Shown here in pieces: positions 1,994 through 25,778 of a DNA stretch of 64,000 bases (positions are counted from its first letter, which is position 1; every line of letters starts with the position of its first letter). Origin of the DNA: an archaeon (GTDB taxonomy: Archaea; Nanobdellota; Nanobdellia; Pacearchaeales; GW2011-AR1). The position numbers and the translations under genes were made by a program. The notes beneath the pieces are model-generated. The model saw only the letters and a program-made list of their open reading frames with translations, was not told where the DNA came from and did no database searches. The stretch lies in contig JBDRNU010000007.1 of the NCBI GenBank assembly GCA_043810775.1, positions 5,050 to 69,049 on the forward strand, given 5' to 3'.

Positions 1994-2154
1994 TTGATTA
2001 TCTATTAACTAACTCCTGTAGGAAGTTAATGCGTTGTGCTGATAAGCACGACAGTTGGCAACCTCCTAAACCGCAAAAATGCGTGTTCATTCTTGCATTT
2101 TTGGGGCACAGAGTAGCGAAACATCAGTGAGCTACTCTGTTGGGTTGATTATCT
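1994..2154. repeat. Exact 10-nt direct repeat TTGATTATCT (1994-2003 and 2145-2154) bracketing a GC-enriched hairpin-rich spacer
   Basis: Both copies read directly from the sequence. The second copy contains the stop codon of the 2149..3156 gene. Confidence 0.6.
2010..2140. ncRNA. Candidate structured RNA or bidirectional terminator module (four consecutive hairpins)
   Basis: Four hairpins: 2010-2016/2021-2028 (loop TGTA), 2033-2040/2045-2052 (loop GATA), 2071-2082/2095-2106 (11 of 12 bp, A5/T5 core) and 2108-2117/2131-2140 (10 bp). By hand count about 48% G+C, against a much more AT-rich surround. Lies between convergent trpS and the KaiC-like gene. Confidence 0.35.
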
Positions 2155-3156
2155 GATTTTTCCGTCAACAGCCACTTTTCCACCAACATGCACTCCTGCT
2201 TTAGTAATTTCAAATGAAAATATTTCAGTTGAATGGTTAGTTCCCCTCATTTTAAGCACCTCAATTAATCTTCTTCTCCTGTTTTTTAGCCTTATAAAAT
2301 AAAGCAGAATAATACTGTCAGCTTCAAACTCCAAGCTTGTTGAAGAGCCCTCTTCCCTATATACTGGGTCTTCTTGCAAAGTCAATAAAGAGGTGCACTC
2401 CCAATTCCTTATTATATCAAATAATTGCAGAGCCGCCTCTCTTTTTGTCAGCTCATCCTTAAAAAGCAAAGCAAAACTAGAAACAGAGTCAATTACAAGT
2501 CTTGTAATTTTATGCTTTAAAATTATGCTTTCTACAGTGCCTCCCCCCTCTTCAAGCATGACTCTTATTTTTTCAGGAGAATACTCTAAAAATACAAATT
2601 TCCCTTCTTTCTCTAGTTTATCCAAGTCCCAGCCAAATTTAAGCATATTCCTAAAGAACTCTTCCTTTTTTTCTTCAAAAGTAATGTACAAGCAATTTTC
2701 ATTATTTTTTATACCTTCAATTAAAAATTGCATTGCAAAAATAGTTTTTCCGCCTCCACTATTTCCCACAACTAGATTCACAGAATTTTCTTCAAATCCT
2801 CCCCCAATAATCCTGTCAAATCCATGAATGCCAGAAGGAACTCTTCGCAATTTAACAGGTTTATTTTCCTTAATTTTTTTCCCAGATTTTTTGCTTTTAA
2901 CCTCTTTTTTAACAGGCCTTTCAGCAAACTTAAAAGCAGTATCAATATCCTTTCCATCCCACTCTTTAGCCAGCAGTGCTTTCTTAATGTCACTCTTGCT
3001 GTAACCTTTAGCTAAAGCATCTTTAATATAAGGGACTAGCTGGTTGTTGCTTCCAGATCCGGAACTTTTTTTCGCTCTTTTTACCCTGGATTTGGAGCTC
3101 TTTTTAGGTTTAGTTTTAGAACTCTTTTTATGAGATTTCTTTTTCCCCTTTTTCAT
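2149..3156 (-). CDS. Single-domain KaiC/RecA-superfamily ATPase, FlaH-like, with lysine-rich N-terminal tail
   Basis: 335 aa. Walker A GNSGGGKT, Walker B-like RLVIDSVS, and KaiC-family C-terminal signature LIEVLKMRGTNHS...FEITKAGV. N-terminus is MKKGKKKSHKKSSKTKPKK... Sits in the type IV filament locus. Confidence 0.8.
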   Translation of the reverse strand: MKKGKKKSHKKSSKTKPKKSSKSRVKRAKKSSGSGSNNQLVPYIKDALAKGYSKSDIKKALLAKEWDGKDIDTAFKFAERPVKKEVKSKKSGKKIKENKPVKLRRVPSGIHGFDRIIGGGFEENSVNLVVGNSGGGKTIFAMQFLIEGIKNNENCLYITFEEKKEEFFRNMLKFGWDLDKLEKEGKFVFLEYSPEKIRVMLEEGGGTVESIILKHKITRLVIDSVSSFALLFKDELTKREAALQLFDIIRNWECTSLLTLQEDPVYREEGSSTSLEFEADSIILLYFIRLKNRRRRLIEVLKMRGTNHSTEIFSFEITKAGVHVGGKVAVDGKIR

Positions 3157-3178
3157 AGTATACTAAAAAAGAATTAGC

Positions 3179-3192
3179 TTATAAACCTTACT
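3179..3192 (-). promoter_or_regulatory. Putative BRE/TATA promoter element (minus strand AGTAAGGTTTATAA) for the KaiC-like gene
   Basis: TATA core centred about 26 nt upstream of ATG 3156, consistent with a leaderless mRNA. An identical 14-mer recurs at 7569-7582. Confidence 0.4.
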
Positions 3193-4198
3193 TTACCATT
3201 GAAAAACTTGAAGCTACAAACTTGAATAAGACAGTTCTTATCATGAAGAATATTGCCAGGCTTAATGCTAGCATTGGCAGCAAATATCTTAAGCCCTCTT
3301 TTTCATCACCTTTATTTACAAGCCCTATTATTAAACTAGCTAGCACATCTGTGATAATCATAAATATTACTGAAAACCAGATAATAAAACTAATTGAAAT
3401 ATCAAGAGCATTAAACTGGAAAGGAGTCTTCACAGAAGTGGCAGCAGTTGTAGCTGTTTCAGGAAAGCTTCCTATTATCTCAATTATTACCTGCACAAGA
3501 ATAGAGCTTAAGCCAAATAATATTGGAGCTCCGATTGAAGCTGCAAAGAAAATAAATATTACATACATCACAATATTTGAAGCAGCTCTTTTCTCAATAA
3601 ACTCTTTTTCACGCATATTGTTTGCGGTTTCTTCAAGCAAAGTGGAAATATTTCCTCCAGCTTTTATTCCAGAAATAATAAGCATAATAGTCTTGTGGAT
3701 TTTTTCTGAACCTATTCTTTTTGACATATCCATCATTGCACTTCCAACATCTTTTCCAGTAGTAACATCTCTTCCAGCTTTGCTCATTTCTTGGTCCAAA
3801 GGGGCAAATTCAGGTCTGGCTGAAAGCAAAAAAGCCCTGTCAATAGTCAAGCCAGCTCTTAAATTACTAGACATAAGCTGCACTACATCTGGAAATATAA
3901 ATTCCATTTTCTTGATTCTTGCGTCAGCTTGCAAGAAAACTTTAAAGTAAAAGAAAACATTTATTAAAATATAACTTACAAAAAAAGTTAAAATTACATT
4001 TATGAATAAGTTTCCCTCAAATACAGCCCTCCCAATAATATCAAGCAAAAATATCAGGCTTGAAATTACTAAAGAAATTAGCAGGCTTCCAACAATTAGG
4101 TTTGACTGGTATCTTTCAGGATTTTCTATTCCAGCTTTTGTGCTAAGACTAAGTAATTTATTCCTAAAGATTCTTGGATAAATTTTAAGAATTTTCAT
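3188..4198 (-). CDS. Type IV filament membrane platform protein, FlaJ/TadC-like half-size paralog 2
   Basis: 336 aa polytopic membrane protein. GspF/FlaJ-like soluble helical domain (LRAGLTIDRAFLLSARPEFAPLDQEMSKAGRDVTTGKDV...GGNISTLLEETA) flanked by TM helices. 4-nt ATGA overlap with the upstream paralog. Confidence 0.65.
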   Translation of the reverse strand: MKILKIYPRIFRNKLLSLSTKAGIENPERYQSNLIVGSLLISLVISSLIFLLDIIGRAVFEGNLFINVILTFFVSYILINVFFYFKVFLQADARIKKMEFIFPDVVQLMSSNLRAGLTIDRAFLLSARPEFAPLDQEMSKAGRDVTTGKDVGSAMMDMSKRIGSEKIHKTIMLIISGIKAGGNISTLLEETANNMREKEFIEKRAASNIVMYVIFIFFAASIGAPILFGLSSILVQVIIEIIGSFPETATTAATSVKTPFQFNALDISISFIIWFSVIFMIITDVLASLIIGLVNKGDEKEGLRYLLPMLALSLAIFFMIRTVLFKFVASSFSMVK

Positions 4199-5088
4199 AA
4201 CAAGCTTGGCCTCCTTGATTTTATAATTCCTAAAAACATTATTTGTATTATCGTAACTATGGCGAGAATACCAATATACATTAATTTCAACATCTTGCTT
4301 TCCATACCCACCATTGATGCAATAATAGTTAGGAATGTCAGCCCCAGTGCCGGAACAATAACCCCTATAAGCAGATAGAACATAACCATGGGATTTAGCT
4401 TGCTTCCATAACTCTGTATTTGTATTGCCTGTTCTTTAGTCATATGGTCAATGCTGTCTTTTATAACCATACTCATGTCACTTCCTGACCTCATTCCATT
4501 GCTTATCTGCCAGACTATTCTTCTAAAATAAACAGAAACATTTTCATTGCCAATTTTATCCAAAACCTCTATTTGTGGCTTTCCAGCACTTATCTCTTTT
4601 ACAGCTTTTTTAAATTCAGAACTTAACTGTCCGTAGTCTGAGCTTGCAATGTTGCTGATTATCTGGAACATTGGAACCCCAGAACTTAGTTGAACCTGAA
4701 TGTCTTGGAGTGAAGGAATAATATTTTTTTCTATGTCTTTAATTTTTTTAAATGAATATATTCTCGGATACATCATTTGGCTTAAAAGTATGAAAAAAGA
4801 AAAAATAATTGCAATGCCTATGCCATAATAATAAAAGTATCTTGTTTTAAGAATAAGAAATAATATAGAAGCGAAAACAGTGGAAAAAATCAAAAAGAAA
4901 ATTACAAAGCTTCTTATAACTAAAGCTATAAATTCCTGTTTATTAAAATCAGATTCAGAATATCTGAGATATTTTTCTAAATTACGAAAAGAGCCTCTTC
5001 TTGCTTTTACAAATCTTAAGTAAGGTTTTGTCTTTCTTCTTAAAATTTCACTGCTTGAGAAAGTATATGGGACTTTAAATTTCTTCAT
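4195..5088 (-). CDS. Type IV filament membrane platform protein, FlaJ/TadB-like half-size paralog 1
   Basis: 297 aa with TM helices flanking a GspF/FlaJ-like soluble domain (LSSGVPMFQIISNIASSDYGQLSSEFKKAVKEISAGKPQIEVL). Immediately downstream of the FlaI-like ATPase gene. Confidence 0.65.
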   Translation of the reverse strand: MKKFKVPYTFSSSEILRRKTKPYLRFVKARRGSFRNLEKYLRYSESDFNKQEFIALVIRSFVIFFLIFSTVFASILFLILKTRYFYYYGIGIAIIFSFFILLSQMMYPRIYSFKKIKDIEKNIIPSLQDIQVQLSSGVPMFQIISNIASSDYGQLSSEFKKAVKEISAGKPQIEVLDKIGNENVSVYFRRIVWQISNGMRSGSDMSMVIKDSIDHMTKEQAIQIQSYGSKLNPMVMFYLLIGVIVPALGLTFLTIIASMVGMESKMLKLMYIGILAIVTIIQIMFLGIIKSRRPSLL

Positions 5089-5100
5089 TTGTTTCTAGGA

Positions 5101-7068
5101 TTATTTTTTCTTTTTTCTTAATTTTGATTTCTTTTTTATTGGAGCAGATTTCACTAAATCTTTATCCTCTTTTATTGAGGTTTTTTCTTCAGTTGTGATC
5201 GGAGACTTGGATTTAATTTCTTCGAATCTGTTGTGTTTAATAATTTCAAAAAGCCTTTCTCGATTAGTATAGTATAGGCTCATAACTTTTCCCATTTCAT
5301 TAAGGCTTCTTATTCTGTTTTTAATAAGCCATTCCAAGATATCTTTTTTCTCTTTAAGATAGCTGTTTATCTCGCTTTGTGACATTCCAGTATGCCTGTT
5401 TAATTCCTCATAAAAAGAAAGGCTTTCGCTATGCTTCAAAATCTGGTCTTTTTCAGGTACATACCTATACAATATATTAGGATTAGCATCATCTTTAGTT
5501 ACAATAAATTCAGCAACCTGAAATACTCTTCTAACCCCTTTTCTTCTGTCTCTGAACATCACTATATTTAAGTTTACTGCTTTCAATAAATTAACAGGCA
5601 CGTTTATTGGTGGATGAGTAAGCCTATTTATAGTTTCTCCAGCAGTATCTGCATGTACAGTTGCATAAACTGAATGTCCGGTATGCATTGCCTCAAATAA
5701 TACTTCAGCCTCTTTCTGCCTTCTCATTTCTCCAAGAACTATCCTGTCAGGCCTCATTCTCAAGCTATTTACAAGAAGATCTAGCATAGAAACCTCTCCT
5801 TTGCCTTCTGGATTAGGGGTTCTCGTAACAAGAGGGCACCAGTATAAGAAATTAGGGAGCATTAGCTCACGAGTATCCTCAATGCTGATAATCCTGTGGT
5901 TTGGTGGAATAAAAGGCATGCACGCATTTAAAAATACTGTTTTTCCTGAAGCAGTTCCTCCAGAAATTAGGACATTCATCTCATACTCCACTGCAAGCCA
6001 TAATAATGCAGCTACATCAAGACTTACTGTACTATTCATAATTAAATCAATCATAGTCCAAGGGTCTCGTGCAAATTTTCTCAATGTAATTGTATTTCCT
6101 TTTGTGGCTATTGGATACAATACAGCATTTGCTCTGTCCCCAGTAACTATGTGGGCATCAAGAAGTGGTGAAAGTATGTTAATCTGCCTCCCAACTCTTC
6201 TTGCAATAATATTTGCATAATTATTTATCTCTTCTTCTCTTCGTATTCTTACATTACTTGAAAGCCATCCATATTTTTTGTGATAAACTCTAATTGGTTC
6301 AGTTTCACTTACAACTACTATTTCCTCCAAATTAGGGTCATTAATTAAGAATTCCATTTTACCTAATCCAAGCATTTCCTGCATCAGAGTGCCAATAAGA
6401 AAATCTTTGGTTTTATCCTCAATATGCGGGACTTTATCTGTAATAATTTTTGATGCCTCTTCCATAAATCTTTTCTTCATCTTAATAATTGCTTCCTGGT
6501 CCACTGTCTCCCCAATCGCAATTGCAGTAACTGCTACAAGCTCATTCCTTATATCATCAAGCAAGGCCCTTGTACCAATTTCAATTGTTGGCATGTAAAG
6601 ATTATAGCTTAGTCCTTCCAATCCCCTCTCAATACTAATAGTAATATTAGCTTTGTCAACTGAAACATTATAGGTTTCAACTACATCTTTCCTAACTACC
6701 TTCTCAACAACTGCTTTTTTCTTCAGTAGCTTTTTAGGTACTCCCAATTTTTTTACTTTAGAGTTTTCAGCTGAATCGCCAACTAGCTTAAATGCATCTT
6801 CAATTTCTTTAGAAGGCCACCCCCTTTCTAAAAGAGCTCTCCTCAAGTTTTCTTTTTTATAACCCTGTTTAAGAGCTTTTCTTAAATGTGGGATTAAATT
6901 AGCTGCATGACTAGACACACTTTTACTTTTTTTTGCCCTTACTTTTCTTACTGAGCTTTTTTTCACTCTTTTCGGCTTTACTGTCTTTGCTCTTTTCTGG
7001 CTCTTTTTCTTTAACCTCTTTTTCTGCAGCTTTTTCATCTTCATCCTCTTTTTCTTCTTTTTCTTCAT
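5101..7068 (-). CDS. FlaI/TadA/VirB11-family type IV filament assembly ATPase with lysine-rich N-terminal extension
   Basis: 655 aa. Walker A SGGTASGKT, Asp box IISIEDTREL, Walker B RPDRIVLGEMR, His box TGHSVYATVHA. N-terminal MKKKKKKRMKMKK... tail. The 5' 146 nt overlap the upstream ORF. Confidence 0.9.
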   Translation of the reverse strand: MKKKKKKRMKMKKLQKKRLKKKSQKRAKTVKPKRVKKSSVRKVRAKKSKSVSSHAANLIPHLRKALKQGYKKENLRRALLERGWPSKEIEDAFKLVGDSAENSKVKKLGVPKKLLKKKAVVEKVVRKDVVETYNVSVDKANITISIERGLEGLSYNLYMPTIEIGTRALLDDIRNELVAVTAIAIGETVDQEAIIKMKKRFMEEASKIITDKVPHIEDKTKDFLIGTLMQEMLGLGKMEFLINDPNLEEIVVVSETEPIRVYHKKYGWLSSNVRIRREEEINNYANIIARRVGRQINILSPLLDAHIVTGDRANAVLYPIATKGNTITLRKFARDPWTMIDLIMNSTVSLDVAALLWLAVEYEMNVLISGGTASGKTVFLNACMPFIPPNHRIISIEDTRELMLPNFLYWCPLVTRTPNPEGKGEVSMLDLLVNSLRMRPDRIVLGEMRRQKEAEVLFEAMHTGHSVYATVHADTAGETINRLTHPPINVPVNLLKAVNLNIVMFRDRRKGVRRVFQVAEFIVTKDDANPNILYRYVPEKDQILKHSESLSFYEELNRHTGMSQSEINSYLKEKKDILEWLIKNRIRSLNEMGKVMSLYYTNRERLFEIIKHNRFEEIKSKSPITTEEKTSIKEDKDLVKSAPIKKKSKLRKKKK

Positions 7069-7531
7069 ATAATTCTACCTCTGGTTCCGAAAACGCAGGG
7101 TAATTTATCAATGCAAGATTATGATCTTCAAGTATTCTCATCCACTCAAGTGCCCTTTCCCTGTCAATATTAAAAATTTCAGCTACAACAGAAACTCTTA
7201 ATTTTTTACCATCTTTTAACAAGCTGTAAAGAAGGTCAATATCTGTTCCTGCCTTGCCTTTTCTTTTTTCAAGACTAGAATAACTTATTTGTATTTTTTC
7301 AGTTTTAGTTTTTTTAAGATGCCTGACATAAGCAAAATAAACAATAAGGAGAATTATTAACCATTGTGCTATAAATGCAATTTTTGAAAAATCAAGCGCA
7401 CCCTCAAAATCTTCACCAATTGCAAGTCCAGTAAATGAAAAAGCACCTGTCAAATATAAAAAAATATTTATGACAGCTAATAGAATCACTATTCCAATCA
7501 CAATCACAAATCCCCTTTTTTCTCCTTCCAT
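6923..7531 (-). CDS. Membrane protein with C-terminal winged-helix-like domain and acidic/lysine tail (first gene of the ATPase operon)
   Basis: 202 aa. Two N-terminal hydrophobic helices. wHTH-like segment (DIDLLYSLLKDGKKLRVSVVAEIFNIDRERALEWMRILEDHNL). E/K-rich tail. Confidence 0.6.
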   Translation of the reverse strand: MEGEKRGFVIVIGIVILLAVINIFLYLTGAFSFTGLAIGEDFEGALDFSKIAFIAQWLIILLIVYFAYVRHLKKTKTEKIQISYSSLEKRKGKAGTDIDLLYSLLKDGKKLRVSVVAEIFNIDRERALEWMRILEDHNLALINYPAFSEPEVELYEEKEEKEDEDEKAAEKEVKEKEPEKSKDSKAEKSEKKLSKKSKGKKK

Positions 7532-7568
7532 TTTGATAATGTTTATAAACTTATTATCATATCTAATT

Positions 7569-7582
7569 TTATAAACCTTACT
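7569..7582. promoter_or_regulatory. Second copy of the 14-mer TTATAAACCTTACT in the 72-bp divergent promoter region of the filament locus
   Basis: Exact match to 3179-3192. Contains the palindromic TATA core TTTATAAA. Lies between the divergent starts 7531 (-) and 7604 (+). Confidence 0.4.
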
Positions 7583-7603
7583 GTATAAAAAGAGGAGTAT
7601 TCC

Positions 7604-8017
7604 ATGTTTGTTAAAAGATCACAAAGTAGCGTAGAGTATCTTATTGTTATAGGATTTGTCACTTTTGCAGTAATGTCAATTCTTGTTGTGGCTTTCTACT
7701 ATTCAGGTGTTGCAAGGGACAGAATAAGAGTTAATCAACTGGAAATTTTCTCGCAGAAAATCATAAATTCAGCAGAAGCAGTCTTTTTTGCTGGTGAACC
7801 TTCAAAATCAACGTTTTCAATATATGTTCCAGAAGGAGTATATAGTATATCTATACCTGAAAATGATTATTATCTAGTTGTAAGTATGTCGACAAGTTCT
7901 GGGCAGATAGTAAGAGCTTTTGACTCAAAAGTGCCTATTAATGGTACAATTTCTGCATCAAACGGAATAAAGACTATAGTAATGGAAGCTCACGAAAATT
8001 ATGTACAGATAAACTAA
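7604..8017 (+). CDS. Pilin-like protein with class III (prepilin-type) signal peptide
   Basis: N-terminus MFVKRSQSSVEYLIVIGFVTFAVMSILVVAF: basic stretch, small residue + Q, conserved E, then a hydrophobic helix. GAGGAG Shine-Dalgarno-like element upstream. Confidence 0.7.
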   Translation: MFVKRSQSSVEYLIVIGFVTFAVMSILVVAFYYSGVARDRIRVNQLEIFSQKIINSAEAVFFAGEPSKSTFSIYVPEGVYSISIPENDYYLVVSMSTSSGQIVRAFDSKVPINGTISASNGIKTIVMEAHENYVQIN

Positions 8018-8018
8018 T

Positions 8019-8408
8019 ATGGAACTGTCAAAAAAATCCCAAACTGCTATTGAGTTTATGATTGTTTTAGGTTCAGCTTTATTTTTTTTTACACTAATTT
8101 TTTTAGTAATTAATGAGAACATTGCTGATAAAAATCGTGAGAAAGAAACAATAATTGTTTCAAATCTTGCCAAATCTGTGCAGGATGAAATAAATCTTGC
8201 TTCAGAAGCAAGCAATGGATACTATCGGGAGTTTTTTATTGCTGATAATATAATTGGCAAGGATTATTTAATTAGTGTAATTGAAAGCAGGATAATTATT
8301 AAAACAGATAAAAATGCAATTTCACTGCCTGTTCAAAATGTGACAGGATTTATACAAAAAGGTTCAAATACTATAAGAAAAGAGGATGGAATCGTGTATC
8401 TTAACTAG
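8019..8408 (+). CDS. Pilin-like protein with class III signal peptide
   Basis: MELSKKSQTAIEFMIVLGSALFFFTLIFLVI. Starts 1 nt after the upstream stop. Confidence 0.7.
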   Translation: MELSKKSQTAIEFMIVLGSALFFFTLIFLVINENIADKNREKETIIVSNLAKSVQDEINLASEASNGYYREFFIADNIIGKDYLISVIESRIIIKTDKNAISLPVQNVTGFIQKGSNTIRKEDGIVYLN

Positions 8409-8880
8409 AAAAGCCCAGGTCTGGAGTATAGACTTAGCAATAGCTATTGTAATTTTTTTAATTGGAATTACAATGATGTATTTTTATGCTCTTAACTACA
8501 CTCAGGAGACAGAAGACAAGCTGGAAGTTCTGTTTTATGATGGAAATAATGTCGGAGAAATCTTGCTTTCTCCTGGCTATCCAGAAGACTGGACTGTATC
8601 TGATGTAGTAACCCCTGGGATTCTTTCAGAAAATAAAATAAATCAGACAAAGCTTGATAATTTTAATTCGCTGAATTATGATGAGATTCAGCGCCGTCTA
8701 AATACTAATTATGAGCTCTTCTTTAACTTTTCAGAGCCAATGTACATTTCAGGAGCATATCAGAAAGGAATAGGCCGTGACCCTCTTGATTATTCACCTC
8801 GGGATATAGTAAAAGTTTCTCGATTTACAATTTACCAAAATAAACCTGTAAGGATAGATATTTTTATTTGGGATGATTAA
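8386..8880 (+). CDS. Pilin-like protein with class III signal peptide
   Basis: MESCILTRKAQVWSIDLAIAIVIFLIGITMMYF. Overlaps the upstream gene by 23 nt. Confidence 0.6.
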   Translation: MESCILTRKAQVWSIDLAIAIVIFLIGITMMYFYALNYTQETEDKLEVLFYDGNNVGEILLSPGYPEDWTVSDVVTPGILSENKINQTKLDNFNSLNYDEIQRRLNTNYELFFNFSEPMYISGAYQKGIGRDPLDYSPRDIVKVSRFTIYQNKPVRIDIFIWDD

Positions 8881-11800
8881 AATGAGGAAAAAAGGATATT
8901 ATTTTAGCATTGATGCTTTAATTGCATTAATTATAATTTTTACAGTTATTGTTACAGTCAGGCCTCCAATCAGGCAGGTTACTTCAGATATGTACCTTCA
9001 GGAAGACCTCTTGCTAGTTTTAACTAGCTTAAAAATAGGGGAAATAAATGAAACTGCTTATCCTTATGTGTATAATGACTGGATTCCTAATAATTATGTC
9101 ACTAATCAAAATCTGACTTTGTTAGACCAAATAGGGGCATTTTACTCTTATGATGATGGCCTTCCTGGCTCAAGGTCAAATAAGCTTACTCAAGATATCA
9201 TAAATCATCTGGGCGCAAAAGATAAAATTGGATTATGGTTTGATAATAGGATGATAGCTAATTCCTCTATTTATAATAATACTTACCAGGTCTGGACTTC
9301 TCGCCAGCTAATATCTGGAATTCAAAATGGAACAAATGTCACTGGTTTTACTGCTACTGCTTCCCTAAGTTCTACAAGCAGGCAGAGTTATTATTACTTT
9401 GGAGGTTATGTTGGTGATGGAATTATTAAAAAGAAAGTGGAATATCAGGGTAGCATTAAGAATGCATCTATAGAAGGAGAGCTTGTTGGAACATTTGACC
9501 TTTCAGTAATTAATTCAGCAGGAGTTGAAACTCCAGCAGGAACTTATACTGGTAGTGCAGGACAGATAACTAAAATAAATATTGAACCAGCCCAAAACTA
9601 TTTCACTCCTGGGGTGAATTATGTCAAATTTAATTCAAATGATTTTTATATTTCAGGAGGATTTGTAAAATTATCTTACGAAAATGTAACTTCTCCTTTT
9701 TCAAGATATAAAAGATATAATTTCCCGGGAATCCAAGGAGTAATAAATCTTTATGATAGCTTTTATGTTCCAGGTACTTTAAATTATATGAGTATTTACT
9801 TAAATTATTCAAGTAATTATACAGCATTTTTAAATCTTGGAAATATCACAATTGTAAATCAAACTAATACTTTTAATACACCAATCAGTTTATCTAATTC
9901 TGACTTGCTTTCACTGGGGTTAAATTATAATTCTCTTACTAATGAGACAATTCCGCTAAGGTTTGGCTTGTGGAATGTTTCTTACTCTTCATCTTCAAAA
10001 TCAAATGCAGATGTATTCTCAGTAACTGACTTAAGCGGAAGTATGGATGGTTCTAAAATTTCTGCTGCTAAAAGTGCTAATAAGGCACTTATTAGTGCAA
10101 TACTTAATGAAAGTATACCTGATAATGAAAATCGTTTAGGATTAGTAGGATATGAGTATTCAGCATCACAAGATGATTTTCACCCTCTCACGAAAAACAA
10201 TAATTCTTTAATAAATAAAGTAAACCAATGGGTTGCTGAAGGATACACATGTATTTGTTGTGGTATAAATAAAGTAATTGGAAACTTTATTGGAAAAGAG
10301 GAAATATATTACAATTTTGATGACAATGTCAATGATCAGTCAGGAAACGGAAATGACGCAGCAATTGTTGGCAGTCCTTCATATGTTTCAGGAGTGGATA
10401 ATACTGCTTTAAAATTTGATGGTGTTGATGACTATGTAAATGCCCATGATGATAATCTTTATTATACGCGCTCTGGAGCAATCTCATTCTGGTTTAAGCT
10501 CGAAAGTGATTTTGACAGGTATTCAGCAACAACTCAACCAATTTGGGGAAAATATATGAATAACAATAATAATGCCTTTATTGTCTTGCGGGGAAATGAT
10601 TTAACCAGTGCTGGTAGGTCAGGTGCAATCCTGGCAAAAATGGAAATGGCAGGGGAAGGGGGTGGTGATGATTATGCTTATTCAAATAGAAGAACATGGG
10701 ATGCTGATACTTGGTATCATTTAGCATTTGTATGGAATAGTAATACTATGCAAATTTATATAAATGGCGTCTTAGACAGAAGCACTTCTGGTGGGCAGGA
10801 TATAGGTTTTACTGGAGATAATGAAATTGGAAGAGTTAGCTTTGATTCCAGTGATATCAGCGGTCAGAGATATTTAGATGGCACAATTGATGAATTCAGG
10901 ATGCATAATCGTGCTTTAAATCTTACAGAAATTCAACAACTTGCAAATAATGTTCCTGTCTGTGGTGATAATCGCATTCAAGTAGGAGAGGTTTGCGATG
11001 GAAACTTTTTAGGATGCAATTCAGGAAGTGAAGTTGGAACTAAAAACTGCAGTTCTGATTGCATTTCTTATAATACTTGCGCAACTGAAAACAAGCACAG
11101 GACAATGATTGTAATGAGTGATGGTCTTGCTAATCGTGTTTGTGGAAATACTGCTTTGGATTATGATGGTGACAGCGATACTACTGAAGACCCCCAAGAC
11201 CAGGCAATAGATGCAGCTTGTGATGCATTTAAAAACTACAGTATAACTGTCCACGCTGTTGCTTTTGGTTCAGATGCAGATGATGACACCTTGCAGCTAA
11301 TAGCTCAATGTGGAAACGGAAGCTTTAGCTCAGGGACAGTTGAAGATATTGTAGATGTTTATATGCAGTTAGCTCGTTATATTCTTGAAGCAACTTTTCA
11401 AGAGCAAAGAATAGTAACTACTGGGGGGATTAACACTACTTTAGACCCAAGCTCGTATATTATTTTTAATTATTCTGCACCCTCAGTTTCAACCGGATTA
11501 TTGCTAAATATTGAAACTAATGAGTTTAATAATAATATAGCTGAAGGAAACTTTAGTGTTCCTGAAGACGCTGAATTATTAGAAGCAAATCTCATATCTT
11601 ATTCAAGAAGCTGGTGGACCTCAAATGTCTCAATTTTTAATACAAACTGGAAAAAAGTTTTTAATCTAGCTGACTATGGCTCTGATTATCTGCAGCTTGG
11701 CGACCCTTATGTTATAAATATTCCCATTGATTTAGCTGAGAATGGAGAAAATAAAGTTAGAGTTCAGTTAGGGTTATCTCCAACAAACTATACTGGTGGT

Positions 11801-12157
11801 TCTAATAAGAGTAAAATAATCTATACTATATTAAAAGAGCGTACTTCATTTTCCCCAATTAAACCAAAAGCAGACGGATGTATCTGGATTTTAAAATTTA
11901 ATGATGGGCAGGAATCTTCTATAAAAGTTCCACAGTACTATACTGGAACTCGCCTGTGCTATTATAATGAATCAGTCTACAACACTAATGATGCAATAGA
12001 TGAAGCTACTTATGCTTTACTAGAAAAAATGGATATTAATTCAGACGGAATAATAGATACTAAATTTACAGAGCAGGACTTGGAAGTTACAACCAATAGG
12101 CTAAAAGGAGTGCCATTTGCCTGGTCTACTGAAGCTCAGGTGAGAGTGTGGAGGTAA
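8873..12157 (+). CDS. Giant pilin-like adhesin candidate: class III signal peptide + vWA domain interrupted by LamG-like and Cys-rich modules
   Basis: 1094 aa. N-terminus MRKKGYYFSIDALIALIIIFTVIV. vWA MIDAS DLSGS at 10028-10042, with the matching distal vWA strand MIVMSDGLAN near 11105-11130. In between: LamG/ConA-like signature (GNGNDAAIVGSPSYVSGVDNTALKFDGVDDYV...TIDEFRMHNRALNLTEIQQL, about 10313-10942) and a Cys-rich repeat (CGDNRIQVGEVCDGNFLGCNSG...C, about 10960-11080). Confidence 0.75.
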   Translation: MIKMRKKGYYFSIDALIALIIIFTVIVTVRPPIRQVTSDMYLQEDLLLVLTSLKIGEINETAYPYVYNDWIPNNYVTNQNLTLLDQIGAFYSYDDGLPGSRSNKLTQDIINHLGAKDKIGLWFDNRMIANSSIYNNTYQVWTSRQLISGIQNGTNVTGFTATASLSSTSRQSYYYFGGYVGDGIIKKKVEYQGSIKNASIEGELVGTFDLSVINSAGVETPAGTYTGSAGQITKINIEPAQNYFTPGVNYVKFNSNDFYISGGFVKLSYENVTSPFSRYKRYNFPGIQGVINLYDSFYVPGTLNYMSIYLNYSSNYTAFLNLGNITIVNQTNTFNTPISLSNSDLLSLGLNYNSLTNETIPLRFGLWNVSYSSSSKSNADVFSVTDLSGSMDGSKISAAKSANKALISAILNESIPDNENRLGLVGYEYSASQDDFHPLTKNNNSLINKVNQWVAEGYTCICCGINKVIGNFIGKEEIYYNFDDNVNDQSGNGNDAAIVGSPSYVSGVDNTALKFDGVDDYVNAHDDNLYYTRSGAISFWFKLESDFDRYSATTQPIWGKYMNNNNNAFIVLRGNDLTSAGRSGAILAKMEMAGEGGGDDYAYSNRRTWDADTWYHLAFVWNSNTMQIYINGVLDRSTSGGQDIGFTGDNEIGRVSFDSSDISGQRYLDGTIDEFRMHNRALNLTEIQQLANNVPVCGDNRIQVGEVCDGNFLGCNSGSEVGTKNCSSDCISYNTCATENKHRTMIVMSDGLANRVCGNTALDYDGDSDTTEDPQDQAIDAACDAFKNYSITVHAVAFGSDADDDTLQLIAQCGNGSFSSGTVEDIVDVYMQLARYILEATFQEQRIVTTGGINTTLDPSSYIIFNYSAPSVSTGLLLNIETNEFNNNIAEGNFSVPEDAELLEANLISYSRSWWTSNVSIFNTNWKKVFNLADYGSDYLQLGDPYVINIPIDLAENGENKVRVQLGLSPTNYTGGSNKSKIIYTILKERTSFSPIKPKADGCIWILKFNDGQESSIKVPQYYTGTRLCYYNESVYNTNDAIDEATYALLEKMDINSDGIIDTKFTEQDLEVTTNRLKGVPFAWSTEAQVRVWR

Positions 12158-25031: not shown

Positions 25032-25778
25032 ATGAAAACTGAATTAAAAAAAATAATTGAAAAAGACAAGCAAAGTAAATTAAATTTTATCAGAGAAGAA
25101 ATTATCAACCCATTATACGAAGGAAAGATTTCTGATATAGAAAAGCTTGAAGTATTTTTAAAATTAATAGGTGAAAGCGTTAAAGACGGAACTCTTGAGC
25201 AGAGAATTCAGGCATTTAATAAATTTACTTCAGATGATGAAGCAATTAAATCTAAAGCAAGAGAAATAATTGAATCAGTCAAACCTAAAGAACCAAAAGT
25301 AATAGATTACCAGGTATATTGTAAAGCTATGGAAAATGGATATTCTGTTGAAGACTTAAAAAAATCATATCCAGACACTACATCAAGGCAATGGGGAGGA
25401 TTGAAGACAGCTTATCAGAAAAAAAAGAAAAAAGCTGAGGAAAAATTAGAAGATGCTCCAGCATCAGATGATTTAACATTTGAAGAATTTAGAAAACTGA
25501 TAGATCAAGGAAATCCTTATGAAACAATTATAAAAAATTATGCAACTGATCAAAAAGTAAAACTAAAAATTACAAGTTTTAAAGCTAAACTTACACAGCA
25601 GAAAAAACAAGAGCAAATTAACAATGATCCAAGGGAACCCCTCCATTATGGATTATACTGCAAATTAAGAAAGGAAGGATATTCAGAAGAAGAAATGTTA
25701 AAAGTCTATAAATCTCCTAAACCAAATTCTATGGTAGGGTTTAGAAGGCAATATAAATCAAGAGAATTAGGGAAATAA
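25032..25778 (+). CDS. Repeat protein with three copies of a ~45-aa module (YCK-x-x-x-x-GYS-type), unknown function
   Basis: 248 aa. Internal repeats DYQVYCKAMENGYSVEDLKKSY..., FEEFRKLIDQGNPYETIIKNY..., HYGLYCKLRKEGYSEEEMLKVY... TAAAATG junction with the upstream gene. Confidence 0.6.
   Translation: MKTELKKIIEKDKQSKLNFIREEIINPLYEGKISDIEKLEVFLKLIGESVKDGTLEQRIQAFNKFTSDDEAIKSKAREIIESVKPKEPKVIDYQVYCKAMENGYSVEDLKKSYPDTTSRQWGGLKTAYQKKKKKAEEKLEDAPASDDLTFEEFRKLIDQGNPYETIIKNYATDQKVKLKITSFKAKLTQQKKQEQINNDPREPLHYGLYCKLRKEGYSEEEMLKVYKSPKPNSMVGFRRQYKSRELGK

What the first reader, a model, noticed from the sequence alone, without database searches (positions are those of the whole stretch)
2929..6897. The two unrelated filament ATPases share the same lysine tail + ~37-aa N-terminal module
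The KaiC-like and FlaI-like proteins belong to different ATPase families. Both nevertheless begin with a poly-lysine tail followed by a colinear module:
- KaiC-like (nt 2929-3039): LVPYIKDALAKGYSKSDIKKALLAKEWDGKDIDTAFK
- FlaI-like (nt 6787-6897): LIPHLRKALKQGYKKENLRRALLERGWPSKEIEDAFK

My hand alignment is gapless. It gives 16 identical positions of 37, and most other positions are conservative.

A shared add-on domain on two different motor ATPases of one machine suggests a common docking partner (membrane, nucleic acid, or the wHTH protein at 6923-7531). It could also reflect domain shuffling within the locus. I do not recognise this module as a named domain.
Basis: seen in the sequence. Interest (0 to 1): 0.7.

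Follow-up and report, generated by a model that had tools for sequence, protein, structure and literature searches.

The report
Shared three-helix add-on on two pilus ATPases
Two different ATPases of one archaeal pilus-like machine really do start with the same small three-helix domain, but that domain is an unnamed, very widespread "bead-on-a-string" module of DPANN archaea, found mostly on the inner tails of surface proteins, so it is not special to this machine.

Summary
The KaiC-like ORF (2149-3156, minus strand) and the FlaI/PilB-like ORF (5101-7068, minus strand) each carry a basic tail followed by a colinear 37-aa module. The modules share 16/37 identities, with z=10 against shuffles and BLASTP E=2e-12.

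- **Fold:** the module is a confident three-helix bundle held between disordered lysine-rich leashes.
- **Naming:** no Pfam or NCBIfam model covers it. The nearest named relatives are the RecX three-helix repeat and UBA-like domains, all below threshold.
- **Distribution:** it is not private to this locus. A profile finds 823 protein clusters (69-5173 aa, 1-10 matched stretches each), mostly in Woese-, Pace- and Nanoarchaeota.
- **Usual context:** 71% of the best 150 carry it at a terminus next to a membrane helix, opposite extracellular adhesin-type domains. The module is therefore probably cytoplasmic. It also heads some MoxR ATPases.
- **On the ATPases:** a separate clade of 22 FlaI-like orthologues has its own version. 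On KaiC-like proteins it occurs only here and in the closest relative (GCA_043815245.1), which also keeps it on both ATPases.
- **Tail:** the lysine tail is a general trait of these proteins.

Best reading: a lineage-specific double fusion of a promiscuous docking or tethering domain. Its partner is unknown. A dedicated link to the neighbouring 202-aa protein is not supported.

The parts
2149..3156 (-). KaiC-like single-domain ATPase gene (335 aa) carrying the add-on
   Evidence: ORF. Pfam KaiC PF06745 E=9.5e-60 at residues 106-325. NCBIfam KaiC_arch_3 scores 150 bits against a cutoff of 249, and ArlH 56 against 215. Identical to NCBI protein P0001.
3049..3156 (-). KaiC-like residues 1-36: lysine/serine-rich tail, predicted disordered
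   Evidence: AF2 pLDDT is 38-56 with no secondary structure. Sequence shown.
2923..3048 (-).
   Evidence: AF2 helices at 37-49, 54-63 and 68-78, pLDDT 92-96. Family profile A4 E=4.4e-18.
2845..2922 (-). KaiC-like residues 79-104: lysine-rich linker between the module and the ATPase domain
   Evidence: pLDDT is 52-60 with no secondary structure.
2164..2844 (-). KaiC/RecA-like ATPase domain (residues 105-331)
   Evidence: Pfam match. PDB KaiC chains align from query residue 97-106 onwards. AF2 fold is confident.
5101..7068 (-). FlaI/PilB (VirB11-superfamily) secretion ATPase gene, 655 aa as the longest ORF (NCBI model starts at Met35, nt 6966)
   Evidence: ORF. Pfam T2SSE E=2.3e-33. NCBIfam FlaI scores 279 bits against a cutoff of 550. 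Best PDB matches are Archaeoglobus GspE2 (2oap) and FlaI (4ii7), aligning from query residues ~168-176.
6898..7068 (-). FlaI-like residues 1-57: lysine/arginine-rich tail; nt 6923-7068 overlap the upstream 202-aa gene
   Evidence: The true start codon is uncertain.
6787..6897 (-). FlaI-like residues 58-94: three-helix module
   Evidence: Translation. Family profile A4 E=1.6e-15 on P0121. Gapless alignment with 13 other modules.
6664..6786 (-). FlaI-like residues ~95-135: lysine-rich linker before the canonical N-domain
   Evidence: Sequence. The orthologue cores begin at the 'Y.L.VDKA.V.I.IE' motif.
3188..5088 (-). Two TadC/FlaJ-like platform genes (336 aa and 297 aa)
   Evidence: Pfam T2SSF E~1e-15 for each. 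The order FlaI - TadC - TadC - KaiC is conserved in L001-L005 and L075.
6923..7531 (-).
   Evidence: Homologues lie upstream of the FlaI-like gene in L001-L005 and L075, E from 1e-34 to 2e-69. No Pfam or PDB hit supports a winged helix.
7604..12157 (+). Divergent genes: three small proteins with hydrophobic, pilin-like N-termini (inferred from sequence) and a 1094-aa vWA + Laminin_G_3 protein
   Evidence: Translations. Pfam Laminin_G_3 E=5.5e-22 and VWA E=4.7e-7. The same arrangement occurs in L001.

Best explanation
Both ATPases carry one copy of an unnamed, promiscuous three-helix-bundle module of about 38-42 residues.

Shown here:
- The module sits between a disordered basic tail and a disordered basic linker, so it is a small folded bead on a flexible leash in front of each ATPase core.
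- The module family is abundant, chiefly in DPANN-type archaea. It usually occupies the terminus of single-pass membrane proteins on the side of the membrane helix opposite their extracellular adhesin-type domains, often in tandem.
- It also heads some FlaI-like and MoxR-like ATPases.
- On the KaiC-like protein it is found only in this MAG and its closest relative.
- The FlaI-like proteins of that same small lineage carry a copy that lies apart from the one other FlaI clade with a module.

Inferred:
- The common ancestor of these two genomes fused tail plus module to both ATPases, probably by copying from one gene to the other.
- The module is cytoplasmic. It works as a protein-protein docking or tethering element that holds the FlaI-like hexamer and its KaiC-like (FlaH-analogous) accessory ATPase at the same membrane-proximal site.
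- It could do this either by binding a common partner or by pairing with other copies of the module.

Rough sub-confidences: identity, fold and distribution about 0.85; lineage-specific double acquisition about 0.65; docking or tethering function about 0.3.
For: - **Real similarity:**
- **Fold:** AF2 on the module alignment gives pLDDT 88.8 with three helices. The full KaiC-like model has residues 1-36 and 79-104 at low confidence and the module at pLDDT 92-96.
- **Family size and architectures:** 823 clusters at E<=1e-3 and 56 at E<=1e-10. Of the best 150, 69 have a membrane helix followed by C-terminal modules and 38 have N-terminal modules followed by a membrane helix.
- **Partner domains:** these are extracellular types (MopE, NPCBM_assoc, NosD, Ig-like, CARDB, beta-helix), plus one MoxR AAA_3 ATPase. 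A second MoxR with an N-terminal module is in L050.
- **Taxonomy:** 45 of 69 pattern hits in species-representative genomes were verified by HMM, and 38 of those 45 are archaeal MAGs (Woese-, Pace-, Nano-, Aenigmatarchaeota, or records labelled Methanosarcinales).
- **Distribution on the ATPases:** 2 of 120 KaiC-like and 24 of 120 FlaI-like homologues carry it.
- **Related loci:** L001 has it on both ATPases. L002-L005 have it on FlaI only.
- **Two FlaI origins:** the neighbour-joining tree places the window plus L001 apart from the 22-member clade with a module.
- **Closeness of the two copies:** their pair score is at the 98th percentile of family pairs.
- **Precedent for the ATPase pair:** FlaH-FlaI interaction is established for the archaellum (PMC5019145, title and abstract). 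KaiC-family ATPases are recurrently linked to archaeal type IV pilus loci (PMC4858521).
Against: - No interaction was tested, so the function is inference from context only.
- The conserved positions are mostly core and helix-capping residues. No obvious conserved binding surface was identified.
- The family profile matches de novo designed three-helix miniproteins better than any natural solved protein (8skx, E=1.9e-8). Sequence statistics alone therefore cannot prove common ancestry of all members.
- The coding DNA of the two copies is only 57% identical, 43% at third positions. Any copying event is old, and independent capture from a third gene cannot be excluded.
- Several unrelated proteins are about as close to the KaiC copy as the FlaI copy is.
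- The tree is neighbour-joining without support values.
- Membrane helices were called with a simple hydropathy window.
- 96 of 120 FlaI-like and 118 of 120 KaiC-like relatives function without the module, so it is dispensable for the core machine.
Confidence: 0.6

Rival explanations
1. Neutral domain shuffling. The tail plus module was copied between the two genes, or captured twice, in an AT-rich genome prone to lysine-rich extensions. It is tolerated as a harmless folded bead with no role in the machine.
For: - The module is absent from most orthologues of both ATPases.
- Conservation is largely structural.
- Lysine-rich tails are common without it.
- The module evolves no more slowly than the cores: 26/37 identical between the window and L001 for the KaiC copy, and 18/34 for the FlaI copy. 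The whole proteins are 72% and 79% identical.
Against: - Both copies are retained intact and in frame in two genomes whose coding DNA has diverged substantially.
- FlaI-like, KaiC-like and MoxR-like ATPases have each acquired the module, which suggests repeated selection for this fusion.
- A 22-member FlaI clade keeps the module throughout.
Confidence: 0.2
2. The module plus its polybasic flanks is a membrane- or nucleic-acid-binding element (helix-turn-helix-like, as in RecX or RepB-type three-helix units) and not a protein docking domain. It would hold the ATPases on anionic lipids, or bind DNA or RNA handled by the pilus system.
For: - Sub-threshold Pfam hits are to three-helix units of DNA-metabolism proteins: RecX_HTH1 in 13/79 modules, RepB_primase_C in 8/79, and RuvA_C.
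- Strongly basic tails and linkers flank both copies.
- The usual position of the module is directly next to a membrane helix.
Against: - Tandem arrays of up to 8-10 copies on the tails of adhesin-like surface proteins are hard to reconcile with sequence-specific nucleic-acid binding.
- The family consensus is roughly charge-balanced (K/E-rich), with no conserved basic recognition helix.
- No solved DNA-binding protein matches significantly.
Confidence: 0.12
3. One reading: both modules dock onto the neighbouring 202-aa membrane protein (6923-7531) as a dedicated partner within this machine.
For: - The 202-aa gene is a constant member of the operon, directly upstream of the FlaI-like gene.
- It has a cytoplasmic acidic stretch that could attract the basic tails (sequence).
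Against: - The 202-aa protein is equally conserved where KaiC lacks the module (L002-L005) and where neither ATPase has it (L075).
- The module occurs in hundreds of unrelated proteins.
- The winged-helix assignment has no support from Pfam or PDB sequence searches.
Confidence: 0.05
4. The resemblance is convergent. Both segments independently approach the 'ideal' minimal three-helix sequence (Gly C-cap, aromatic staple, Ser/Thr-x-x-Glu N-cap) and do not share ancestry.
For: The family profile hits de novo designed miniproteins at E=1.9e-8 and 3e-7, which shows that such similarity can arise without descent.
Against: - Helix and loop lengths are identical, the alignment is gapless across 79 instances, and the aromatic positions are shared.
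- The pair is closer than 98% of family pairs.
- The similarity extends into the preceding tail.
- Both fusions are restricted to one small lineage.
Confidence: 0.03

Closest known systems
RecX three-helix repeats (Pfam PF21982 RecX_HTH1, PF02631, PF21981)
   Same: - Both are three-helix units of about 40 residues with an 'S-x-x-E-[IL]-x-x-x-L-x-x-x-G-[FYW]-x-x-x-x-[IV]' pattern.
- RecX_HTH1 is the most frequent Pfam hit among family members: 11/91 proteins with best E=1.7e-8, and 13/79 isolated modules.
- RecX 3e3v is the top Foldseek PDB hit (TM 0.62).
   Different: - The two window modules do not hit the RecX models at all.
- The Foldseek E-value is 3, which is not significant.
- RecX is a soluble protein of about 150 aa made of three packed repeats that regulates RecA. 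Here single or loosely linked copies are fused to ATPases or to the tails of membrane proteins.
UBA / UBA-like domains (for example Cbl UBA; Pfam UBA_2)
   Same: A three-helix bundle of about 40 residues with a Gly-aromatic first loop. Weak sequence hits were found: UBA_2 E=0.014 for the FlaI copy, Cbl UBA E=0.17-0.33, and UBA-type families for a few members.
   Different: All scores are below the curated thresholds. No ubiquitin-like partner is known or tested here.
Pex14 N-terminal domain
   Same: A small three-helix protein-docking domain next to a membrane. Foldseek TM is 0.68-0.72.
   Different: The E-values are 3-9 (not significant), there is no sequence relationship, and Pex14 is eukaryotic and peroxisomal.
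De novo designed three-helix miniproteins (PDB 8skx HHH_rd4_0518, 8vl3)
   Same: These are the best sequence matches in the PDB to the family profile (E=1.9e-8 and 3.1e-7), sharing 'GYSxE[DE]I..xLkkxG'.
   Different: They are artificial and have no common descent. The value of this match is as a warning that the motif encodes generic helix capping and packing.
Archaellum FlaI-FlaH (ArlI-ArlH) pair and archaeal type IV pilus loci with KaiC-family ATPases
   Same: The same gene kinds occur in one operon: a VirB11/FlaI-type ATPase, FlaJ/TadC platform genes and a single-domain KaiC-like ATPase. The FlaH-FlaI interaction is documented (PMC5019145). KaiC association with pilus loci was noted in PMC4858521.
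   Different: - NCBIfam FlaI and ArlH models score far below their cutoffs (279 against 550, and 56 against 215).
- The partner genes seen here are three small pilin-like ORFs and a vWA/LamG protein, and no Pfam or NCBIfam match to an archaellum-specific component was found among the ORFs scanned.
- PMC4858521, as far as the passages read go, does not describe this N-terminal module.
N-terminal accessory domains of bacterial T2SS/T4P ATPases (GspE N1 domain binding GspL; MshEN c-di-GMP-binding domain of MshE/PilB) - from my own knowledge, not tested here
   Same: The same design principle applies: a small extra domain on a flexible linker in front of the secretion ATPase, mediating docking or regulation.
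   Different: The folds and sequences are unrelated. In those systems only the hexameric motor ATPase carries the extra domain, and no second ATPase shares it.

Membership tests
Unnamed DPANN three-helix module family (defined here by profiles A2 and A4) | Significant match to the family profile over its whole length | tested here: met
   The KaiC copy scores E=4.4e-18 and the FlaI copy E=1.6e-15 against A4. Both were among the seed sequences, so this is partly circular. Independent support comes from 823 database proteins found with A2 and nearest neighbours with 18-20/37 identities in unrelated proteins.
Unnamed DPANN three-helix module family (defined here by profiles A2 and A4) | Compact three-helix bundle of about 38-42 residues | tested here: met
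   AF2 pLDDT is 88.8 and 92-96 in the full-length context. This is a prediction only.
RecX three-helix repeat (PF21982 / PF02631 / PF21981) | Pfam model match at or above the gathering score (26 bits) | tested here: not met
   Neither window module gives a RecX hit even at E<=10, and member 1 of A4 matches 0 families. Only a minority of family members match, and mostly below threshold.
RecX three-helix repeat (PF21982 / PF02631 / PF21981) | Three tandem packed repeats forming a stand-alone RecA regulator of about 150 aa | tested here: not met
   There is a single copy on each ATPase, flanked by disordered linkers.
RecX three-helix repeat (PF21982 / PF02631 / PF21981) | Structural superposition on a solved RecX repeat | tested here: inconclusive
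   3e3v is the top Foldseek hit, but E=3.0 and TM=0.62 over 45 columns.
UBA domain | Pfam UBA-family match above threshold | tested here: not met
   UBA_2 scores 15.8 bits against a cutoff of 23 for the FlaI copy, and the KaiC copy has no UBA hit.
UBA domain | Binding of ubiquitin or a ubiquitin-like protein | not testable with these tools
   No interaction assay or multimer prediction was available.
Archaellum motor pair FlaI/ArlI + FlaH/ArlH | NCBIfam equivalog models at or above their cutoffs | tested here: not met
   FlaI scores 278.7 bits against 550, and ArlH 55.8 bits against 215.
Archaeal type IV pilus-like system (VirB11/FlaI-type ATPase + TadC/FlaJ platform + pilins) | T2SSE ATPase adjacent to T2SSF platform genes | tested here: met
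   PF00437 and two PF00482 matches lie in one minus-strand gene row. The arrangement is conserved in six related loci.
Archaeal type IV pilus-like system (VirB11/FlaI-type ATPase + TadC/FlaJ platform + pilins) | Pilin genes with class III signal peptides, and a prepilin peptidase | tested here: inconclusive
   Small ORFs at 7604-8880, and the 1094-aa protein, have short polar N-termini followed by a hydrophobic stretch. No Pfam match was found, and no peptidase was looked for.
KaiC family (PF06745) | Pfam match above threshold with the P-loop and the EE motif | tested here: met
   202 bits against a cutoff of 26.6. 'GGGKT' and 'TFEEKKEE' are visible in the sequence.

The most novel reading that the evidence does not exclude
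The module is a previously undescribed cytoplasmic 'docking code', chiefly of DPANN archaea. The same three-helix bead would be displayed on the inner tails of many surface adhesins and on the ATPases linked to the pilus machine (FlaI-like, KaiC-like, MoxR-like). Module-module pairing, or a shared hub, would then physically couple the pilus motor to surface proteins. In this lineage the two ATPases would each contribute one half of the two-copy arrangement that most family members carry in a single chain.
Probability: 0.12. Interest if true: 0.75.

Novelty: new variant of a known kind. Interest (0 to 1): 0.4.

Why it matters
DPANN archaea live attached to host cells and depend on surface proteins and pili, yet most of these proteins are unannotated. 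This work identifies a large domain family with no dedicated model in the databases tested (at least 823 clusters at 50% identity). The family marks the apparently cytoplasmic ends of such surface proteins and has been fused repeatedly to ATPases associated with pilus machinery.

If the module is a docking element, it would give a concrete handle on how the inside of these tiny cells organises their surface machinery. That handle is a 40-residue, easily expressed domain. At the least, the family deserves a database model, which would improve annotation of many DPANN proteins. It would also correct gene calls that cut the module off, as happened for the FlaI-like gene of GCA_043815245.1.

Tried and rejected
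- **Short-query protein search:** The search for homologous proteins with the 50-column two-sequence alignment found nothing, because the word index needs three shared 5-mers. One of three searches was lost.
- **Locus search with the module alignment:** I replaced it with a degenerate DNA pattern scan. 24 of its 69 hits, nearly all bacterial, were chance matches and were discarded after an HMM check.
- **Source names:** The listing of cluster members gave essentially no names for ten module proteins.
- **Provenance:** The look-up of encoding contigs could not locate P0001, so the window's own assembly accession was not recovered.
- **Structure comparison:** Foldseek against the PDB and viral libraries gave no match better than E=0.7. 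For a 45-residue three-helix query this says little either way.
- **Literature:** four searches found no description of the module.
- **Composition bias:** rejected by the shuffles and by composition-adjusted BLASTP.
- **Recent duplication or gene conversion:** rejected, because third-codon-position identity is only 16/37.
- **Third copy in the window:** the ORF at 25032-25778 has only two half-motifs ('ENGYSVEDLKK', 'KEGYSEEEMLK') and scores E~1e-3 at best, so it is not a full module.
- **Linker-fused two-module model:** I did not run a structure prediction of a linker-fused two-module chain. The tool returns no contact or PAE data, so it could not test pairing.

Full report
**1. The observation**

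They lie near the N-termini of two ORFs.
- ORF 2149..3156(-) is 335 aa, with Pfam KaiC PF06745 at residues 106-325 (E=9.5e-60).
- ORF 5101..7068(-) is 655 aa, with Pfam T2SSE PF00437 (E=2.3e-33).

The gapless alignment has 16/37 identities and a BLOSUM62 score of 100. None of 200,000 shuffles of one peptide exceeded 38 (mean -32.8, SD 13.0, z=10.2). BLASTP of the whole proteins with compositional adjustment gives E=2e-12 over 71 columns. The similarity is therefore real and is not lysine/alanine composition. A six-frame HMM scan finds no further full copy in the window.

**2. What the segment is**

AlphaFold2 on a 14-sequence module alignment predicts a three-helix bundle with mean pLDDT 88.8. 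In a model of the full KaiC-like protein:
- residues 1-36 are disordered (pLDDT about 40);
- the helices at 37-49, 54-63 and 68-78 are very confident (pLDDT 92-96);
- residues 79-104 are again low-confidence with no secondary structure;
- the KaiC domain follows.

Solved homologues align only from query residue ~168 (Archaeoglobus GspE2, FlaI) and ~97-104 (KaiC chains). In both proteins the module is thus an add-on in front of the canonical core, tethered by lysine-rich leashes.

**3. Is it a named domain?**

- Neither module reaches any Pfam or NCBIfam threshold. The best value is UBA_2 at E=0.014 for the FlaI copy.
- Scanning 79 isolated family members, 13 touch RecX_HTH1 (best E=4.5e-5), 8 touch RepB_primase_C, and a few touch UBA-type models. 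No family covers the majority.
- In whole proteins, RecX_HTH1 is the commonest hit (11/91, best E=1.7e-8).
- Foldseek gives nothing significant. RecX 3e3v and the Pex14 N-domain rank top, at E=3 or worse. The viral library's best is E=0.7.
- A profile search of PDB sequences returns de novo designed three-helix miniproteins as the best matches (8skx, E=1.9e-8). Natural proteins (RecX, Cbl UBA) stay at E=0.17 or worse.

That last result shows that the motif largely encodes generic helix capping and packing. It is a caution against reading every match as descent.

**4. How widespread it is**

A profile of 14 modules was searched against 1.84 billion representative proteins. It found 823 proteins at E<=1e-3 and 56 at E<=1e-10, ranging from 69 to 5173 aa with 1-10 matched stretches each.

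Among the best 150 (simple hydropathy calling):
- 69 have a membrane helix followed by C-terminal modules;
- 38 have N-terminal modules followed by a membrane helix;
- 34 have no membrane helix and are mostly short fragments.

Most carry two copies, separated by linkers with a median length of 17 residues. This list is biased towards multi-copy proteins because it is ranked by total score.

The other domains in these proteins are extracellular types: MopE, NPCBM_assoc, NosD, Ig-like, CARDB, beta-helix, Laminin_G_3. The module sits on the opposite side of the membrane helix and is therefore inferred to be cytoplasmic. That fits its presence on soluble ATPases. One MoxR AAA_3 ATPase in the representative set, and another in a Nanoarchaeota MAG (L050), also begin with the module.

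A degenerate DNA pattern scan of species-representative genomes gave 69 loci, and 45 were confirmed by HMM. Of those 45, 38 are archaeal MAGs whose records are titled Woesearchaeota, Nanoarchaeota/Nanoarchaeia, Pacearchaeota, Aenigmatarchaeota or 'uncultured Methanosarcinales'. I did not verify the Methanosarcinales label. Seven are bacterial (Cytophagia, Spirulina, Parcubacteria and others, two of them weak).

**5. Distribution on the two ATPases**

The closest homologues of the window proteins are annotated as Pacearchaeota, Nanoarchaeota or 'archaeon' MAGs.
- **KaiC-like:** of the 120 best homologues, only the window protein itself (P0001) and its closest relative P0002 (72% identical) have the module. 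The rest are about 250 aa, often with a lysine-rich tail only.
- **FlaI-like:** of the 120 best homologues, 24 have an N-terminal module. Of these, 22 share a distinctive version ('WVKEAI.KGYS..DIR.LLLK.GY...QILKVLS.YEK') placed at the very N-terminus.

In the relative's contig (L001, GCA_043815245.1) the NCBI gene call for the FlaI-like protein is truncated to 520 aa. The open frame actually runs from 5937 and encodes a basic tail plus the module 'ILKPALERALKQGHDKDKLTKALLGKGWKSEDIRQAFK'. That genome therefore also has the module on both ATPases.

Four loci from the FlaI-module clade (L002-L005) have it on FlaI only. L075 has it on neither ATPase.

A neighbour-joining tree of the FlaI cores places the 22 as one clade and the window plus L001 as a separate pair, with many module-less lineages in between (no support values). 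The window's FlaI copy resembles the general 'GW....I..AF' type, not the FlaI-clade type.

**6. Relationship of the two copies**

- Among 131 full-length family instances, the KaiC-FlaI pair scores at the 98th percentile of all inter-protein pairs. The KaiC copy is the best match of the FlaI copy, and the FlaI copy is third best for the KaiC copy.
- Several unrelated proteins are nearly as close, at 18-20/37 identities.
- The coding DNA is only 57% identical, 16/37 at third positions.

I conclude that a common origin of the two copies in the ancestor of this small lineage is likely. The event is old, and independent capture cannot be excluded.

**7. The lysine tail and the 202-aa neighbour**

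Basic tails are a general feature. 51/120 KaiC-like and 59/120 FlaI-like relatives have at least 35% K/R in the first 40 residues.

The start of the FlaI-like ORF is uncertain. Its first 146 nt overlap the upstream gene, and the NCBI model starts at Met35.

The 202-aa protein at 6923-7531 is a conserved operon member in L001-L005 and L075, whether or not the ATPases carry modules. That argues against it being a dedicated partner of the module. Its winged-helix nature has no support from Pfam or PDB sequence searches.

**8. Mechanism**

Shown:
- a folded three-helix bead on flexible basic leashes at the N-terminus of both ATPases;
- a family whose normal place is the membrane-proximal tail of surface proteins, inferred to be cytoplasmic;
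- repeated fusion to pilus-associated ATPases.

Inferred: the module is a docking or tethering element that keeps the FlaI-like hexamer and its KaiC-like accessory ATPase at a common membrane-proximal site. It could do so through a shared partner or through pairing of modules. The KaiC-like protein is taken as analogous to FlaH, which binds FlaI in the archaellum (PMC5019145). KaiC-family ATPases are recurrent neighbours of archaeal pilus loci (PMC4858521).

I put this function at roughly 0.3. Neutral shuffling is at about 0.2, lipid or nucleic-acid binding at about 0.12, and the 202-aa-partner idea at about 0.05.

**9. Comparison with known systems, and verdict**

- **Pilus system:** the operon is a type IV pilus-like system, not an archaellum. 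NCBIfam FlaI and ArlH equivalogs score far below their cutoffs. The companion genes are pilin-like ORFs and a vWA/LamG protein.
- **Module:** it resembles RecX repeats, UBA domains and the Pex14 N-domain in fold class, but fails each family's sequence test.
- **Design principle:** an accessory N-domain on a secretion ATPase is known from bacterial GspE and MshE/PilB (my own knowledge). Sharing one module between the motor ATPase and a second, KaiC-type ATPase appears not to have been described in the literature I could search.

The finding is real and modestly interesting. Its main value is that it exposes a large, unnamed domain family found mainly in DPANN archaea. It does not reveal a mechanism unique to this locus.

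Noticed in passing
L001 5937-7964 (GCA_043815245.1, JBDRJD010000018.1); window 6923-7068: The NCBI gene call for the FlaI-like protein of the closest relative starts at 6402 (520 aa) and cuts off the basic tail and the module. The open frame begins at 5937 and overlaps the upstream gene by 122 nt. The window shows the same long overlap (146 nt, or 44 nt with the NCBI start at Met35). An overlap conserved in two genomes suggests it is real.
   Followed up: partly
window 25032-25778 (+): A 248-aa ORF with no Pfam hit contains two half-motifs resembling helix 1 - loop - helix 2 of the module ('YCKAMENGYSVEDLKKSY' and 'YCKLRKEGYSEEEMLKVY'). It matches the profile only weakly (E~7e-4 in the window scan) and is not a full module.
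   Followed up: partly
L050 1-1185 (+) (Nanoarchaeota MAG JAHKAF010000052.1): A MoxR-type AAA_3 ATPase (E=1e-55) carries the same module at its N-terminus (residues 14-47). One MoxR was also among the 91 representatives scanned. MoxR/vWA pairs are reported neighbours of archaeal pilus loci (PMC4858521), so this is a third pilus-associated ATPase type with the module.
   Followed up: partly
window 2149-12157; L001-L005, L075: The locus plan is conserved: a membrane protein of about 200 aa, then the FlaI-like gene, two TadC-like genes and the KaiC-like gene on one strand. In the window and L001 three small pilin-like ORFs plus a large vWA-containing protein lie divergently upstream; a VWA-annotated large protein is also called near the operon in L003-L005. 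In the window and L001 a TrpRS/TyrRS-class tRNA synthetase gene flanks the KaiC-like gene.
   Followed up: partly
family profile A4 versus PDB: The best PDB sequence matches of this natural domain family are de novo designed three-helix miniproteins (8skx E=1.9e-8; 8vl3 E=3e-7). This is a striking case of a natural family sitting very close to 'ideal' designed sequences.
   Followed up: no
L075 8653-9402 (+): In this related locus a SAM-dependent methyltransferase gene (Ubie_methyltran and related Pfam hits) is inserted between the two TadC-like platform genes.
   Followed up: no
window 5104-5208 (-), C-terminus of the FlaI-like protein: The FlaI-like protein also ends in a lysine-rich tail ('...SAPIKKKSKLRKKKK'). 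Many orthologues carry a weak PilB3_C (PF23989) match near the C-terminus. The 202-aa protein likewise ends in a lysine run.
   Followed up: no
L048 4606-7998 (-) ; L064 3779-4852 (-): MAGs titled 'uncultured Methanosarcinales archaeon' hold proteins with 8 and 3 tandem modules. Fourteen such records carry the module. Their taxonomic label is taken from the record title and may not be reliable.
   Followed up: no
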